A stretch of DNA of 64,000 bases from an uncultured Draconibacterium sp. (GCA_963677155.1 OY781884.1:2060134-2124133), one strand, 5' to 3'. Numbered from the stretch's first letter, positions 6,342 through 11,004 are shown. Notes: a model not told the origin generated them from the sequence alone. Numbers and translations are program-made.

Positions 6342-7244
6342 TTACTGGATTTCAAATGTTGTTTCGCCAATTTCATTTCCGTCGGCAAACAAATTAATGG
6401 TATAGGTTCCGGGCATCATTTCAGGTTCATTGGTATTGTCCCAGAAAATAGCCACCGGTAAATCCTGACCTTCGTAAACTACCTCGCGCATGGCGGAATA
6501 TTGAATCTTCAAATCTTCAAACTGAAAGACATCGTTTTCCGATTTCACCATCAACAACTGATCGGGACGCATAATTCTTACATAAATCTGCTTTGGGCCA
6601 CGCTTAGCAGTTGCATTTTGCCCTAATACAAAATAGATACGCACTTTAGCTGTACGGCGGGCAAATTTTGTTTCCTTACTTCGGGTATTTAAAGGCTCTG
6701 CCACCAACTGGCGTGTTTCGAGCATGGCAGCCCGTTTCAGGTTTTGCTGCAGCCGTTCTTTTTCTTTACTCAGTTGTTGCTTTTCTTGTTCAGACTGGAC
6801 ATATTGTTCTTTTACCTGTCGATTTTCAGCCCTTAACTGTTCATTTGCTCGGTTTAAAGAATCAACCTGAACGTAGAAATCACGCATTATGCCTTTTAAA
6901 GTAGTTACCTGCTTTTGGTAGTCTGAAATTTTCGAGTAGCTAACCTTTTTGGTCTGCTCTACCTCCAACAACAGATCCTTTACTTTGGCCTGAGCCACAA
7001 ACAATTGCTCATTTATAGTGTCGTTTTCGGTTTTTAACGAATCGTAACTGGCAGCAATTTCAGTTAACTGGAATTGAATGGAATCCTTTTCAGCAGTGAT
7101 TTCGTTCATTATCACCTTATGATCGCGTCGTTGCAAAAAGAACAACACTAACACAACCGCCAATACCACAGCAAGAACAATAACAATTATATTGTTTCTC
7201 ATGTCTTTCGAATCTTTTTGCATCGCATCAATCTGGCTACTCAT
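6342..7244 (-). CDS. Hypothetical membrane-anchored coiled-coil protein with C-terminal beta-sandwich
   Basis: N-terminal TM helix, long heptad region, then a beta-rich C-terminus (PGTYTINLFADG). Confidence 0.8.
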   Translation of the reverse strand: MSSQIDAMQKDSKDMRNNIIVIVLAVVLAVVLVLFFLQRRDHKVIMNEITAEKDSIQFQLTEIAASYDSLKTENDTINEQLFVAQAKVKDLLLEVEQTKKVSYSKISDYQKQVTTLKGIMRDFYVQVDSLNRANEQLRAENRQVKEQYVQSEQEKQQLSKEKERLQQNLKRAAMLETRQLVAEPLNTRSKETKFARRTAKVRIYFVLGQNATAKRGPKQIYVRIMRPDQLLMVKSENDVFQFEDLKIQYSAMREVVYEGQDLPVAIFWDNTNEPEMMPGTYTINLFADGNEIGETTFEIQ

Positions 7245-7631: not shown

Positions 7632-10013
7632 CTAATACAAGTTTCCTATTTTTATCCCAAAATAAATAGTTCTTGGAGATAAGGGGCCATACACATACGA
7701 TGGGTCACGATCTTCTCCCAAATCAAAATCTTCCTGGTAACTGTTAAAAATGTTTTTCACTCCGCCGTTCAACTCCACTTCCATGTAATCCGACAAGCGG
7801 AAATGGTAACAAAGTTTTATTCCTGTATCAAAAAACGAATTACTTTCCCTGAGTTCTCCTTTCTTAGGTTCTCCTTCCTTAGGTTTTTCAATGGTAGGTC
7901 CAAAATAAGGTACCAACATTTTCCCGGTATAATTTCCGGTAAATGCAATATCGAATACAGGTGTTGGACTAATATTTGCACTAAGATAACCGTAGGTATT
8001 GGGCGTTCTGAAAAAGCGTTTTTCGCTAAATTCCTGTTCGGACTTATACTCACTTTTCTGAACGGTAAACCCCGACTGAAGCTGGAATTTCTGCGATGGC
8101 GACGCATTCAGTTCAATATTCATTCCCTTCACGTCGGCACCGTCTTCGGCATTTACACGGGTATAGACAACGACTCTGTTTTCGTCATCTCCGTATTCAT
8201 TTGCAAACGGATCGATTAACTGGGTGTAAAATCCTTCGACCAACAACTGGTATTGCCAATTGCCAATTTCATTCGAATAATCAAGCGATGCTGTAAAACT
8301 GTTTGACGATTCCTGTTTCAGATTCGGGTCATTCTCATGAAGCACCAGACGTGCACTTGATGCTTCGATATGAAGGTCTTCATCAAAAATCTGCGGAGCA
8401 CGGAAACCACGGCCAAAACTACTTCTGAATTGCAGGTGTTCAAAAATATTGTACAGCAAACTCACACGCGGACTTAAAACATTTCCACTCACATCATCGT
8501 TGTTTTGTATTTTTTCCTCGATGTTGTAATGATCATAGCGCAAACCGGCACTAAAAACCACTTTCTCGGTTTTCCACTCCGATTGTACAAACGCGCCATA
8601 GTTGGTCATTCTCTGATCGGCAATTTGAGTATTTCCGTGTTGCACATCTTTTGCACGATCGTAATACCCCAGTTTTTCGTCTTCTAATGAACTACCATTT
8701 GTCTCAATTCCAGAAGTAATTGTTGCCGGAGAAAACAGCAGATAGTCAATATTTCGAATGTATTGCAAACCAGCAGCATAAGTCAAATCCTCGGTGTGTC
8801 CGTATGCTGATAGATCTCGTTTGGCTCCATAATACGAATCACGGTCAACCCCCTGCATTGATACAAATGCCGAGAATTTATCGTTATCGCGAAGCAGCAA
8901 ATCAAAATTCAGAGCTCCCGAATTTATTTGGTGCTGAACGCTTTCAGAAATATCCGACTCGTGCAGTGGAAGATAGAACTTATTTCCACCACGTCGGTCT
9001 TCGTTTATATTGAAATAATCGATAGTAACTTTTCCACGGTTTGCTACACGCTGGTATAAACGAGCCCCGATTGTGGTATTGTTAATTCTTGACAATTCCG
9101 AGAATCCGTCGCCATTGGCATCAAACGGATCGCGTTTTCGGTGAAACCCAAAAATACTCATCCCTGTTTTATAATCGTCGGTTACAAACGAGCCATTAAT
9201 ATTAATATTATAATCGCTGGCTGCATCGTAGCCCTCTCCTACTCCCACAAAACTATTATTTACCGAGGTTTCGAAACTGTTCATTACCGGATCTTTTGTA
9301 ATTAGATTAATGGTTCCGGCAATGGCATTACTTCCGTACATGGATGATCCGCCACCACGAATTACCTCCACCCGTTCAATCATATTAGCAGGGATCAGCT
9401 CCAGTCCATAAACACCAGCCAATCCGCTAAAAACCGGGCGCGAATTAATAAGAATTTGTGAATAGGGTCCTTCCAGCCCATTCATTCGTACCTGCGAAAA
9501 ACCACAGTTCTGGCAGTTGTTCTCCATTCGCAATCCGGGCGAAAAATTCAGTCCTTCGCCTAGCGTAACACTCTGTACCCGTTCAAATAATTTTGGGTTG
9601 ATGCTGTTCACAATGGTTGGCGTTTCTCTCCGGCTTTTGGCATTTCTGTCGGCCGAAACCACAACCTGTTCAATTCCGATATTATCAGGCTTAAGTTCGG
9701 CCAAAATAGTAACACTTTTTTTAGCTTCCATTTTCACCTCTTTCTCCATTGGCTGATAGCCAATTGCCGATATTACAACCACTTGTTTTCCAAGTGGCAA
9801 ATTTGTCATTTTAAAATGACCGGTGGCATCGGCAGCCGTTCCAATGGTAGTTCCTTTAATGGTTATTGTTGCAAACGGAATATGTTCTTCGCCCGATTTT
9901 ACATCGCCAAAAAGCATGGCATCAGTCTTGTCTTTTTTATCGTCGTTGAGCCCTTCTGCCCAGGCAATCTGACATGAAATGAATAGCAATAAAATTGCAT
10001 ATATGGATTTCAT
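7632..10013 (-). CDS. TonB-dependent receptor (CarboxypepD_reg-like + plug + barrel), probable metal/cofactor uptake
   Basis: Signal peptide; plug ENNCQNCGFSQVRMNGL...IERVEVIRGGGSSMYG; C-terminal PRTIYFGIK. Confidence 0.93.
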   Translation of the reverse strand: MKSIYAILLLFISCQIAWAEGLNDDKKDKTDAMLFGDVKSGEEHIPFATITIKGTTIGTAADATGHFKMTNLPLGKQVVVISAIGYQPMEKEVKMEAKKSVTILAELKPDNIGIEQVVVSADRNAKSRRETPTIVNSINPKLFERVQSVTLGEGLNFSPGLRMENNCQNCGFSQVRMNGLEGPYSQILINSRPVFSGLAGVYGLELIPANMIERVEVIRGGGSSMYGSNAIAGTINLITKDPVMNSFETSVNNSFVGVGEGYDAASDYNININGSFVTDDYKTGMSIFGFHRKRDPFDANGDGFSELSRINNTTIGARLYQRVANRGKVTIDYFNINEDRRGGNKFYLPLHESDISESVQHQINSGALNFDLLLRDNDKFSAFVSMQGVDRDSYYGAKRDLSAYGHTEDLTYAAGLQYIRNIDYLLFSPATITSGIETNGSSLEDEKLGYYDRAKDVQHGNTQIADQRMTNYGAFVQSEWKTEKVVFSAGLRYDHYNIEEKIQNNDDVSGNVLSPRVSLLYNIFEHLQFRSSFGRGFRAPQIFDEDLHIEASSARLVLHENDPNLKQESSNSFTASLDYSNEIGNWQYQLLVEGFYTQLIDPFANEYGDDENRVVVYTRVNAEDGADVKGMNIELNASPSQKFQLQSGFTVQKSEYKSEQEFSEKRFFRTPNTYGYLSANISPTPVFDIAFTGNYTGKMLVPYFGPTIEKPKEGEPKKGELRESNSFFDTGIKLCYHFRLSDYMEVELNGGVKNIFNSYQEDFDLGEDRDPSYVYGPLSPRTIYFGIKIGNLY

Positions 10014-10184
10014 AATTTCTATATAATAATCTTATTTTCAAACTACTAAATATGTCTTTTTTTAAATAGCGGGAATACGCCGCCTTAGCCATCGTTAAAA
10101 CACAGCACAGATGAAAGACAAACCACCTGAACGGTGACGACTAATTTGTTGCAAATAATGCAACACCAAATAAGTATTTGAAAA

Positions 10185-10538
10185 TTATACAGGCGGTGCC
10201 CGCGGAATGATGTGCAACGAAACCGGAATTGCTACTTCCTGTTCATCAAGAATAAGGTAATCAATGTGAGTGGCAGGAATTTCGAAGTCGAATTCAACAA
10301 AATCCGGAGTTTCATACAGACCAAAATGAAGTGAAGCATAAAGATTAATTTCCCGTTGCGAGTGCTTATGATTGTTATTGGGGCCGTCCGAACGGGATAT
10401 TGGATGCGAATGAGTAACAACAATACCATTTGCATAAACATGGGTATGCTCATTTTGTATTGAATTTTGAACGATGTACAGATACACCGGAAGAATCAGT
10501 ACAAAAAGAAAATTGGTATGTTTTCTTATTAAATTCAC
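10185..10538 (-). CDS. His-rich membrane/secreted small protein ending in RAPP; candidate leader/arrest peptide
   Basis: GTG start; hydrophobic N-terminus; HTH, HSH and HKH motifs; C-terminus IPRAPPV; 171 bp upstream of the receptor on the same strand. Confidence 0.8.
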   Translation of the reverse strand: MNLIRKHTNFLFVLILPVYLYIVQNSIQNEHTHVYANGIVVTHSHPISRSDGPNNNHKHSQREINLYASLHFGLYETPDFVEFDFEIPATHIDYLILDEQEVAIPVSLHIIPRAPPV

Positions 10539-10557: not shown

Positions 10558-10565
10558 CAAAATTA
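10558..10565 (-). promoter_or_regulatory. Bacteroidota sigma-A -7 element (TAatTTTG)
   Basis: Exact TAnnTTTG match about 20 nt upstream of the GTG at 10538. Confidence 0.55.
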
Positions 10566-10620
10566 AGAACCTTTCTAAATAAAGAACAGAACAATTGCTA
10601 TTTTTGCATTTTATTTAACA

Positions 10621-11004
10621 ATGGCAAGACGCAGACCAACATTTAAAATCTACAGTTACGGCGAGTACTCGAAATGGGATCGGGCAAGCAGGGATATTCC
10701 GAAGATATTGGATTTTACCACAGAAATTAAAGCTGAGATAGGAACGGAGTTTGGCTACGTGTTGCACATTAAAAATGGCAAGGGAGAGAAAGTCGATTTT
10801 CAGATCGATCATCCGCCATTTAAAGATGAAGAGGGGAATGTAAGACCTCCGTTTACAGGCGAACAATTTATCAGAACTAATGATTTTGAGTTTTATTTGG
10901 GCGATTGCATTTGGGAACCACTTGACGACAAGTTGGGAAAATGGGAGCTAACCACCTGGTATAAAGGCAAAGTGGTTGCTCACAAAATTTTCATGTTGAT
11001 CTAA
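10621..11004 (+). CDS. DUF3859 domain protein
   Basis: YSYGEYSKWD, EFGYVLHIK, HPPFKD, FYLGDCIWEP resemble the DUF3859 family. Confidence 0.75.
   Translation: MARRRPTFKIYSYGEYSKWDRASRDIPKILDFTTEIKAEIGTEFGYVLHIKNGKGEKVDFQIDHPPFKDEEGNVRPPFTGEQFIRTNDFEFYLGDCIWEPLDDKLGKWELTTWYKGKVVAHKIFMLI

What the first reader, a model, noticed from the sequence alone, without database searches (positions are those of the whole stretch)
10185..10538. Candidate metal-sensing ribosome-arrest leader: His-rich, Cys-free uORF ending in RAPP upstream of a TonB receptor
Seen: 117 aa with an N-terminal hydrophobic segment, three HxH motifs (HTH, HSH, HKH; 10 His, 0 Cys) and RAPP (10191-10202) followed only by V-stop. 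It has its own -7 promoter box and the receptor lies 171 bp downstream. Knowledge: RAPP-type motifs are ribosome-arrest sequences (ApdA/ApdP), and DUF2946 proteins such as Bordetella CruR use export signal + CxxC + RAPP to control a downstream TonB transporter in response to copper. Inference: a Bacteroidota analogue in which His clusters replace CxxC. The exported nascent chain would bind Ni/Co/Zn, the resulting pull would relieve stalling, and receptor expression would shut down. I know of no characterised His-type version.
Basis: partly seen in the sequence, partly recalled or inferred. Interest (0 to 1): 0.85.

Follow-up and report, generated by a model that had tools for sequence, protein, structure and literature searches.

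The report
His-rich ribosome-stalling leader before TonB receptor
A small membrane-anchored gene with six invariant histidines and the ribosome-stalling ending Arg-Ala-Pro-Pro sits in front of an outer-membrane importer gene; it belongs to a large unnamed Bacteroidales family and is most likely a metal-sensing (probably zinc) stalling switch, a principle already shown for the copper sensors CruR and CutF.

Summary
It covers a 117-aa ORF (10538-10185, minus strand), GTG start, hydrophobic N-terminus, HTH/HSH/HKH, 10 His, 0 Cys, RAPP-V-stop, a TAATTTTG -7 box 27 nt upstream and a TonB receptor 171 nt downstream.

The ORF is a real gene of a large, unnamed family, with at least 150 clusters at 50% identity, all about 120 aa. 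Named members come from Prolixibacteraceae or Bacteroidales.

Across 99 diverse members only nine residues are invariant: the six His of the three HxH motifs, and R, P, P of RxPP. The linker between them is about 10% identical yet 53 +/- 1 residues long.

In 48 of 52 loci with downstream DNA the next gene is a TonB receptor. The other four lead to porin-like or ABC-importer genes. Two loci adjoin ZnuABC/AztABC-like importers, which points to zinc.

In many lineages the uORF's last codons and stop codon pair with the region just upstream of the receptor start. In this window's clade that is a 13-bp helix with covariation.

Best reading: a CruR-like arrest leader with a His sensor. It is not a DUF2946 member. 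Nothing is experimentally shown. RAPP/RGPP uORFs before TonB receptors are already published as an in-silico class (PMC12992588), and this scan noted the same family earlier on other genomes.

The parts
10558..10565 (-). Bacteroidota-type -7 promoter box TAATTTTG, 27 nt upstream of the uORF GTG
   Evidence: TAnnTTTG sits 24-28 nt upstream of the start in 25/49 related loci. Close relatives carry TAATTTAG at the same aligned position.
10185..10538 (-). uORF / leader gene, 117 aa, GTG start, TAA stop
   Evidence: 44 close homologues and at least 150 clusters at 50% identity. Single copy in its own 5.27-Mb genome.
10455..10517 (-). N-terminal signal-anchor / transmembrane helix (residues 8-28), predicted N-in, C-out
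   Evidence: AF2 helix 8-28. 184/200 members have a strongly hydrophobic 17-aa window. On average 2.2 K/R lie before it and 0.7 after it.
10362..10448 (-). His sensor region: HTH (31-33), HSH (43-45), HKH (57-59); all six His invariant
   Evidence: Invariant columns in 99 diverse members. AF2 places HTH and HSH on the two strands of a beta-hairpin, 30-34 and 40-44.
10203..10361 (-). Variable linker (residues 60-112) that is conserved in length but not in sequence
   Evidence: Linker identity is 10%, against 44% for the His region and 56% for the tail. Length from the third HxH to R is 53.0 +/- 1.1 residues, range 50-55.
10191..10202 (-). RAPP arrest-type motif (R113 A114 P115 P116), followed by V117 and stop
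   Evidence: R, P, P are invariant. Family motifs: RAPP 90, RGPP 65, a few RSPP, HAPP and others, 1-14 aa from the C-terminus. All six Arg codons and all four Pro codons are used, so selection acts on the peptide.
10172..10185 (-). 5' arm of the long-range helix P1; it starts at the last base of the stop codon
   Evidence: RNAalifold on 7 Draconibacterium-clade loci. 13 pairs, 96.7% of cells paired, 3 pairs with compensatory changes, 4/500 shuffles as good, slid controls 34-54% paired.
10034..10047 (-). 3' arm of P1, 21-34 nt upstream of the receptor ATG
10065..10164 (-). Three hairpins enclosed by P1: 10164-10148, 10142-10087, and 10086-10065 (GC stem followed by a U/A run)
   Evidence: The third stem shows compensatory changes: GCGG/CCGC here against GCGAT/ATCGC in relatives.
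7632..10013 (-). TonB-dependent receptor, 793 aa (CarboxypepD_reg + Plug + barrel); plug motif CQNC at 9515-9504
   Evidence: An orthologue (37-89% identity) lies directly downstream in 38/38 genome loci.
6342..7244 (-). DUF8429/DUF8428 protein, 300 aa; frequent downstream neighbour, operon membership uncertain
   Evidence: Found downstream of the receptor in 21 loci, including distant ones. The gap here is 387 nt.

Best explanation
The 117-aa gene is a cis-acting, metal-sensing translation-arrest leader for the TonB-dependent receptor downstream.

Shown by sequence comparison:
- It is the first gene behind a Bacteroidota-type promoter.
- It has an N-in/C-out membrane anchor, immediately followed by six invariant His (3 x HxH).
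- A sequence-free linker of fixed length (53 +/- 1 aa) follows, ending in an invariant R-x-P-P, mostly RAPP or RGPP, a few residues before the stop.
- It almost always precedes an outer-membrane importer gene.

Inferred mechanism:
- The ribosome arrests with Pro115 in the P site and Pro116 in the A site, as RAPP/RGPP peptides do.
- At that moment the His hairpin lies 71-85 residues from the peptidyl-transferase centre and the third HxH 56 residues from it. The sensor is therefore outside the ribosome tunnel and at or beyond the translocon, tethered by the membrane anchor at one end and by the ribosome at the other.
- Without metal the arrest persists. The arrested ribosome covers the last codons, the stop codon and a few bases beyond, so the helix between that stretch and the region 20-35 nt upstream of the receptor AUG cannot form. 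The receptor is then translated (ON).
- When metal, most likely Zn(II), is bound by the His cluster, compaction pulls on the chain and the arrest is released. The helix reforms and receptor synthesis falls (OFF).
For: - Family-wide invariance of exactly H31, H33, H43, H45, H57, H59, R113, P115 and P116 in 99 diverse members.
- 178/187 members have 3 HxH plus [RKH]xPP, with a His-to-R spacing of 51-56 residues.
- Linker identity is 10% and its length 53.0 +/- 1.1 residues. CruR shows the same kind of ruler, CXXC-RAPP 45 +/- 2 residues, which is needed for regulation (PMC9426467).
- Synonymous codon variation at all four motif codons.
- Synteny: 38/38 genome loci and 9 more distant loci have a TonB receptor next, with gaps of 41-329 nt.
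- Metal link: one family member heads a porin-like gene plus a ZnuA/AztC-like operon. Another sits between znuA(His-rich loop)-znuC-znuB and its receptor.
- RNA, window clade: a P1 helix starts at the stop codon, with covariation.
- RNA, other lineages: analogous hairpins overlap the stop codon and end 0-25 nt before the receptor AUG in lineages whose intergenic regions cannot be aligned.
- RNA, statistics: 21/46 loci show at least 5 expected pairs between the stall zone and the initiation zone, against 3-6/46 in shuffles.
- No recognisable promoter in this window's intergenic region.
- Published precedent: RAPP/RGPP arrest is robust and refractory to EF-P. CruR arrest was shown in vitro. RAPP/RGPP uORFs are enriched before TonB receptors (PMC12992588). 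RAPP-like arrest peptides exist in Bacteroidales and Flavobacteriales (PMC10987492).
Against: - No experiment exists for any family member. RAPP alone is not sufficient for arrest, and the residues upstream of R are variable here.
- Bacteroidales RAPG peptides stalled ribosome-specifically in published tests.
- For this window, forcing the stall zone unpaired does not change the predicted accessibility of the receptor start region (0.39 to 0.39). The change is small or inconsistent elsewhere.
- RNAalifold finds no consensus helix in the short-intergenic-region group. 25/46 loci lack the stall-zone pairing.
- The loci are phylogenetically related, so the counts are not independent.
- AF2 gives a fairly confident model (pLDDT 81), and 84/200 members have a second hydrophobic stretch. 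A stable membrane protein with its own function is therefore not excluded.
- Nine loci (Tangfeifania/Mariniphaga) have a possible internal promoter 73-78 nt before the receptor.
- The zinc assignment rests on two loci. Their binding proteins also hit Mn-type models, all below the curated cut-offs.
Confidence: 0.65

Rival explanations
1. The gene encodes a stable small inner-membrane metal-binding protein, a chaperone or accessory of the receptor, that acts in trans. The C-terminal RxPP would be a structural or interaction motif, and no regulatory arrest would occur.
For: AF2 model with mean pLDDT 81 and a defined His beta-hairpin. A second hydrophobic segment occurs in 84/200 members. A promoter-like box lies between the uORF and the receptor in 9/46 loci. 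CutF was first read as a chaperone (PMC9426467 discussion).
Against: A 53-residue linker with about 10% identity but a length fixed to +/-1 residue is hard to explain for a folded interaction domain. The invariant motif is exactly the proteome-avoided RAPP/RGPP arrest core, near the C-terminus of a small exported protein upstream of a TonB receptor, which is the published signature of arrest uORFs. There are no fold relatives in the PDB. Start codons are mostly GTG or TTG, which suggests low output.
Confidence: 0.15
2. It is an arrest leader, but the stall is read out through transcription termination in the intergenic region rather than through unmasking of translation. The terminator could be Rho-dependent, as for CruR, or intrinsic at the GC hairpin with U run at 10086-10065.
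For: CruR works through Rho (PMC9426467). A terminator-like hairpin with compensatory changes is conserved in the window clade. Terminator-like sites are enriched in the region, 3 found against 0.6 expected. The accessibility test for unmasking is inconclusive in this window.
Against: The intergenic region here is G>C and highly structured, not rut-like (sequence). Many relatives have intergenic regions of only 41-70 nt consisting of one stop-overlapping hairpin without a U tract. The 3' arm of P1 lies downstream of the terminator-like hairpin, so P1 cannot control it.
Confidence: 0.25
3. It is an arrest leader that senses something other than a transition metal. Candidates are membrane-insertion (Sec/YidC) capacity, as for SecM, MifM and VemP, or periplasmic pH through His protonation.
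For: A membrane anchor is present in nearly all members. Classical RAPP-type peptides monitor protein localisation. One HAPP-variant member heads an SsuA-type ABC operon rather than a metal system.
Against: Six invariant His in HxH pairs are classic metal ligands. The downstream genes are importers, never sec or yidC. ZnuABC-like genes are adjacent in two loci.
Confidence: 0.1

Closest known systems
CruR (Bp2923) of Bordetella pertussis, Pfam DUF2946/PF11162, leader of cruR-bfrG-bp2921 (Roy et al. 2022, PMC9426467)
   Same: A small first gene of the operon with an N-terminal export signal, conserved metal ligands, and a fixed spacer to a C-terminal RAPP a few residues before the stop. A long untranslated gap separates it from a TonB-dependent transporter. 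The expected logic is the same: stall means ON, metal means release and OFF.
   Different: There is no sequence membership: the window protein has no Pfam hit and only 4/99 members match below threshold. The ligands are six His (3 x HxH) instead of CXXC. The spacer is about 54 aa rather than 45. The phylum is Bacteroidota, which does not use Shine-Dalgarno initiation. The metal is probably Zn, not Cu. The read-out is probably an RNA helix rather than Rho.
In-silico class 'RAPP/RGPP uORFs upstream of TonB-dependent receptors' (Fujiwara et al. 2025, EMBO J, PMC12992588)
   Same: It meets every stated feature: under 300 aa, motif near the C-terminus, a localisation signal, and a TonB receptor downstream in a Gram-negative phylum.
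   Different: That paper treats the class statistically. In the parts I read it does not describe this His family, its ruler or its RNA helix. Its experiments concern Streptomyces peptides and CruR.
CutF of Rhodobacter capsulatus (cutFOG; PMC9973294; bioRxiv 10.1101/2025.02.05.636593)
   Same: An exported nascent chain senses periplasmic metal. A stall at a C-terminal proline motif melts an mRNA stem-loop that masks initiation of the next gene.
   Different: CutF uses Cys ligands and a poly-Pro motif that interacts with EF-P. Metal induces the stall, which turns ON a detoxifying enzyme. Here an uptake system is controlled, so the opposite sign is expected.
ApdA/ApdP and SecM-type monitoring substrates (PMC7897499, PMC10951233, PMC10987492)
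   Same: The RAPP/RGPP core acts at the peptidyl-transferase centre, and the arrest is expected to be released by a pulling force on the exported chain.
   Different: Those peptides precede sec or yidC genes and sense translocation. They have no metal ligands.

Membership tests
DUF2946 / CruR family (PF11162) | Significant match to the Pfam DUF2946 profile | tested here: not met
   The window protein has no DUF2946 hit even at E<=1. Among 99 family members only 4 match, with best E = 0.02, below threshold.
DUF2946 / CruR family (PF11162) | Invariant CXXC copper-binding motif | tested here: not met
   0 Cys in the window protein. No conserved Cys column in the family.
DUF2946 / CruR family (PF11162) | Conserved C-terminal RAPP a few residues before the stop | tested here: met
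   RAPP-V-stop here. R, P, P are invariant, and 155 of 178 members carry RAPP or RGPP.
DUF2946 / CruR family (PF11162) | Fixed spacing between the sensor motif and RAPP | tested here: met
   51-56 residues (mode 54) from the last His to R. The linker measures 53.0 +/- 1.1 residues. The value differs from CruR's 45.
RAPP/RGPP arrest-peptide uORFs before TonB receptors (PMC12992588) | Small (<300 aa) ORF with R[AG]PP near the C-terminus | tested here: met
   117 aa, with the motif 1 residue before the stop.
RAPP/RGPP arrest-peptide uORFs before TonB receptors (PMC12992588) | N-terminal localisation signal | tested here: met
   Hydropathy and positive-inside heuristics in 184/200 members, plus AF2 helix 8-28. 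No dedicated predictor such as DeepTMHMM was available.
RAPP/RGPP arrest-peptide uORFs before TonB receptors (PMC12992588) | TonB-dependent receptor gene directly downstream on the same strand | tested here: met
   171-nt gap here. 48 of 52 loci with downstream DNA show the same arrangement.
RAPP/RGPP arrest-peptide uORFs before TonB receptors (PMC12992588) | Ribosome arrest at the P-P codons (peptidyl-tRNA, toeprint) | not testable with these tools
   This needs in vitro translation or Ribo-seq.
CutF-like proteins | CXXXC motif plus a C-terminal poly-proline (PPP) stall motif | tested here: not met
   There are no Cys, and the motif is RAPP rather than PPP.
Sec/YidC monitoring substrates (SecM, MifM, VemP, ApdA/ApdP) | Encoded upstream of secA, secDF or yidC | tested here: not met
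   The downstream genes are TonB receptors, porin-like proteins or ABC importers in all loci examined.

The most novel reading that the evidence does not exclude
This would be the first zinc-sensing translation-arrest peptide. A periplasm-exposed, membrane-tethered six-His module would convert metal binding into a pulling force that releases an RAPP arrest. It would thereby gate translation of an outer-membrane importer through a stop-codon-overlapping RNA helix, in a phylum that initiates translation without Shine-Dalgarno pairing.
Probability: 0.3. Interest if true: 0.8.

Novelty: new variant of a known kind. Interest (0 to 1): 0.6.

Why it matters
Only copper has so far been shown to control bacterial genes through a nascent-chain arrest peptide (CruR, CutF). 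A widespread His-based family in Bacteroidales would extend that principle to another metal, probably zinc. It would also extend it to a phylum whose translation initiation lacks Shine-Dalgarno pairing, so the read-out must differ.

The family also offers a very clean natural 'ruler': nine invariant residues and a sequence-free linker of 53 +/- 1 aa. That could be used to study force-dependent arrest release across the translocon. It gives a function to a large set of 'hypothetical proteins' and a handle on the substrate of an uncharacterised clade of TonB receptors with a CxxC plug.

Tried and rejected
- Riboswitch or known RNA in the intergenic region: Rfam at E<=1 found nothing relevant.
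- Pfam and NCBIfam family for the uORF: none. There is only a sub-threshold, His-driven hit to a HypB prefix model.
- Fold relatives: no PDB match with E<=0.001.
- Paralogues in the window's own genome: one copy only.
- Close relatives of the ZnuA-linked member P0152: it is a singleton.
- ZnuA or ZnuB genes within +/-5 kb of the other loci: none apart from L043 and L053.
- Consensus structure for the short-intergenic-region group: RNAalifold found none.
- Predicted unmasking of the receptor start by a stalled ribosome: inconclusive, with no effect in this window.
- Pairing of the RAPP codons with the third hairpin, seen in the window's MFE fold: not conserved in relatives, so treated as chance.
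- A 'TAGTTTG' just before the receptor as a promoter: it is one base short of TAnnTTTG, and its conservation is explained by the 3' arm of P1.
- RiPP precursor idea, prompted by the radical SAM gene nearby: rejected. The conserved parts are an N-terminal anchor and a C-terminal RxPP, and the radical SAM neighbour is not consistently linked.
- Profile-based locus search with the diverse alignment failed because it has no conserved 7-10 column stretch. The closer alignment was used instead.
As a result there is no phylum-wide census, no RNA-seq or Ribo-seq check and no whole-genome scan for Zur or ZnuABC.

Full report
**1. The observation**

- The minus-strand ORF 10538-10185 encodes 117 aa from a GTG start.
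- It has 10 His and 0 Cys, with HTH (31-33), HSH (43-45) and HKH (57-59).
- It ends in R113-A-P-P116-V-stop; the RAPP codons are at 10202-10191.
- A Bacteroidota-type -7 box, TAATTTTG, lies at 10565-10558, 27 nt before the GTG.
- The next gene, 171 nt downstream on the same strand (10013-7632), is a 793-aa TonB-dependent receptor. It has CarboxypepD_reg, Plug and barrel domains. Its plug motif C167-Q-N-C170 is conserved in 40 of 41 orthologues.
- In all six frames of the 64-kb window, R[AG]PP occurs only twice in open segments of at least 40 aa. The other occurrence is in a non-coding frame.

**2. It is a real gene of a large, unnamed family**

- A word-indexed search found 44 homologues of 41-79% identity, all called 'hypothetical protein', mostly from Draconibacterium and Prolixibacteraceae.
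- Named members are Prolixibacteraceae, Bacteroidales or 'Bacteroidota bacterium'.
- Neither Pfam nor NCBIfam has a model for it.
- DUF2946, the CruR family, is matched below threshold by only 4 of 99 members.
- The window's own 5.27-Mb genome holds one copy.

**3. Anatomy of the family**

- In an alignment of 99 diverse members with mean column identity 25%, exactly nine columns are invariant: H31, H33, H43, H45, H57, H59, R113, P115 and P116.
- Of 187 full-length members, 178 have three HxH motifs followed by [RKH]xPP. The motifs are RAPP 90, RGPP 65, RSPP 7, HAPP 5 and a few others, located 1-14 residues from the C-terminus.
- Pairwise identity by segment is 23% for the N-terminus, 44% for the His region, 10% for the linker and 56% for the RxPP tail. 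The linker nevertheless measures 53.0 +/- 1.1 residues, range 50-55.
- All six Arg codons and all four Pro codons are used at the motif, so the peptide is selected, not the RNA.
- The N-terminus is a hydrophobic segment in 184 of 200 members, with a positive-inside bias (2.2 K/R before, 0.7 after). This predicts N-in/C-out, with the first HxH 1-8 residues after the anchor.
- AlphaFold2 with the family alignment (pLDDT 81) gives helix 8-28, a beta-hairpin 30-34/40-44 that carries HTH and HSH on its two strands, a short helix 61-70 after HKH, and coil for the rest.
- No solved structure resembles the model.

**4. Genomic context**

- In 40 genome loci (Draconibacterium, Maribellus, Tangfeifania, Mariniphaga, and one MAG labelled Odoribacter), all 38 with downstream DNA carry an orthologous receptor immediately downstream on the same strand. 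Receptor identity is 37-89%, and the gaps are 41-329 nt.
- Nine more distant members, looked up individually, also precede a CarboxypepD_reg-Plug-barrel receptor.
- The exceptions are informative:
  - One member heads a signal-peptide-bearing 418-aa protein, then a ZnuA/AztC-like binding protein and two ABC-3 permeases.
  - A HAPP-variant member, seen on two near-identical contigs, precedes a homologue of that 418-aa protein.
  - Another HAPP variant heads a 275-aa exported protein plus an SsuA-type ABC system.
- In Prolixibacteraceae bacterium JC049 the order is znuA-znuC-znuB, then the uORF, then the receptor. Its ZnuA carries a His-rich loop (HGDHVHLH), and its best models are the zinc-type AdcA, AztC and AztB, although all score below the curated cut-offs and Mn-type models also hit.
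- This is the basis for favouring zinc. It is suggestive, not decisive.

**5. The intergenic RNA**

- In the window's clade (this window plus six Draconibacterium loci), RNAalifold predicts a 13-bp long-range helix, P1.
  - Its 5' arm begins at the last base of the stop codon (10185-10172).
  - Its 3' arm lies 21-34 nt before the receptor ATG (10047-10034).
  - It encloses three hairpins.
- On a pair count, 96.7% of cells pair and three pairs show compensatory changes. One involves the stop codon's third base: TAA pairs with U here, while TAG pairs with C in relatives. Only 4 of 500 shuffles do as well, and slid registers give 34-54% pairing. Seven related sequences make this modest evidence.
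- In other lineages the intergenic regions cannot be aligned with this one. Single-sequence folds there show the same design: a hairpin whose 5' arm overlaps the last codons and stop, and whose 3' arm ends 0-25 nt before the receptor AUG. Examples are L011, L012, L017, L018, L023, L044, L045 and L049.
- Quantitatively, 21 of 46 loci have at least 5 expected base pairs between the zone a ribosome arrested at RxPP would occupy and the receptor's -30..+9 region. Shuffling that zone gives 3-6 of 46.
- Against this:
  - Forcing the stall zone open changes the predicted accessibility of the start region little and inconsistently, and not at all in this window.
  - No consensus helix was found for the short-intergenic-region group.
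  - 25 of 46 loci lack the pairing.
- No promoter box lies in this window's intergenic region. Nine Tangfeifania/Mariniphaga loci have one 73-78 nt before the receptor.
- Start codons of the uORF are mostly GTG or TTG.

**6. Most likely mechanism**

Established knowledge:
- RAPP and RGPP arrest translation with the first Pro in the P site and the second in the A site. The arrest is refractory to EF-P, and the motifs are avoided in proteomes except near the C-terminus of small exported proteins (PMC10951233; PMC12992588).
- CruR uses CXXC plus RAPP with a functionally required 45-residue spacing to control a TonB transporter in response to copper (PMC9426467).
- CutF uses a stall to melt a stem-loop that masks the next gene (bioRxiv 10.1101/2025.02.05.636593).

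Inference for this locus:
- At arrest, H59 is 56 residues and the HTH/HSH hairpin 71-85 residues from the peptidyl-transferase centre.
- With roughly 30-40 residues in the exit tunnel and a further stretch through the translocon, the His module is on or emerging at the periplasmic face. It is tethered by the anchor on one side and by the ribosome on the other.
- Metal-driven compaction of the three HxH motifs would then pull on the chain and release the arrest.
- While arrested, the ribosome covers the stop codon and a few bases beyond it. This prevents the P1-type helix from forming and keeps the A/U-rich leader of the receptor open. Release lets the helix form.
- For an uptake system the sensible sign is stall = ON at low metal.

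I put 0.65 on 'cis-acting arrest leader that controls the receptor'. Within that reading, I put about 0.45 on zinc as the ligand and about 0.6 on the RNA-helix read-out.

**7. Rivals**

- A stable accessory metallochaperone with no regulatory arrest (0.15). It is supported by the confident AF2 model and by the second hydrophobic stretch in 84 of 200 members. It is opposed by the sequence-free, length-fixed linker.
- Read-out by transcription termination rather than by unmasking (0.25; not exclusive of the main reading).
- Sensing of something other than metal (0.1).

**8. Comparison with what is known, and novelty**

- The element works like CruR, but it is not a DUF2946 member: the profile and the CXXC motif were both tested and not met.
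- It fits every stated feature of the published in-silico class 'RAPP/RGPP uORFs upstream of TonB-dependent receptors' (PMC12992588).
- Full-text searches found no paper that describes this His family.
- It is therefore a new variant of a known kind. The new elements are a His-based sensor, a probable non-copper ligand, and a stop-overlapping helix in a phylum that does not use Shine-Dalgarno initiation.
- Earlier notes of this scan (e1-5272666, e1-5116483) describe the same six-His/RxPP family on other genomes. They are AI notes and not independent evidence. I re-derived the family features here and added the ruler statistics, the ZnuABC contexts and the P1 covariation.

**9. Limits**

No phylum-wide census, no transcript or ribosome-profiling check, and no search of the host genome for Zur or ZnuABC could therefore be made.

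Noticed in passing
window 6342-7244 (-): A 300-aa membrane-anchored coiled-coil protein (Pfam DUF8429/DUF8428 in relatives) follows the receptor in 21 loci. These include the most distant ones (L037-L039), where the upstream synteny is lost. It may belong to the same functional unit.
   Followed up: partly
L043:5639-9746 and L047/L048: One family member heads an operon of a 418-aa exported, probably outer-membrane protein without any Pfam or NCBIfam match, followed by ZnuA/AztC-like and two ABC-3 genes. A 54%-identical homologue of the 418-aa protein follows a HAPP-variant leader on other contigs.
   Followed up: partly
L053:2426-7991: In Prolixibacteraceae bacterium JC049, a znuA (His-rich loop)-znuC-znuB cluster lies directly upstream of the leader-receptor pair on the same strand.
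   Followed up: partly
L052:504-4456: A HAPP-ending variant of the leader precedes a 275-aa exported protein and an SsuA/NMT1-type ABC importer, which is not an obvious metal system.
   Followed up: no
L024-L034 intergenic regions: The Tangfeifania/Mariniphaga loci carry a TAnnTTTG box at a constant 73-78 nt upstream of the receptor start. This may be an internal promoter that would bypass the leader.
   Followed up: no
L002-L012, about 7900-10300: In several Draconibacterium relatives a second, paralogous TonB receptor lies convergent to the leader-controlled one. This window lacks it.
   Followed up: no
window 10558-10620: Only 82 bp separate the leader from the divergent DUF3859 gene (10621-11004, +). 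Both apparent -7 boxes are conserved in relatives: TAATTTTG for the leader, and TATTTTTG on the other strand.
   Followed up: partly
window 9504-9515 (-): The receptor plug carries an almost invariant C-Q-(N/T)-C motif, ENNCQNCGFSQVR, which reads ETDCQTCNYTQLR in distant orthologues. Its role, as a disulfide or a metal site, is unknown.
   Followed up: partly
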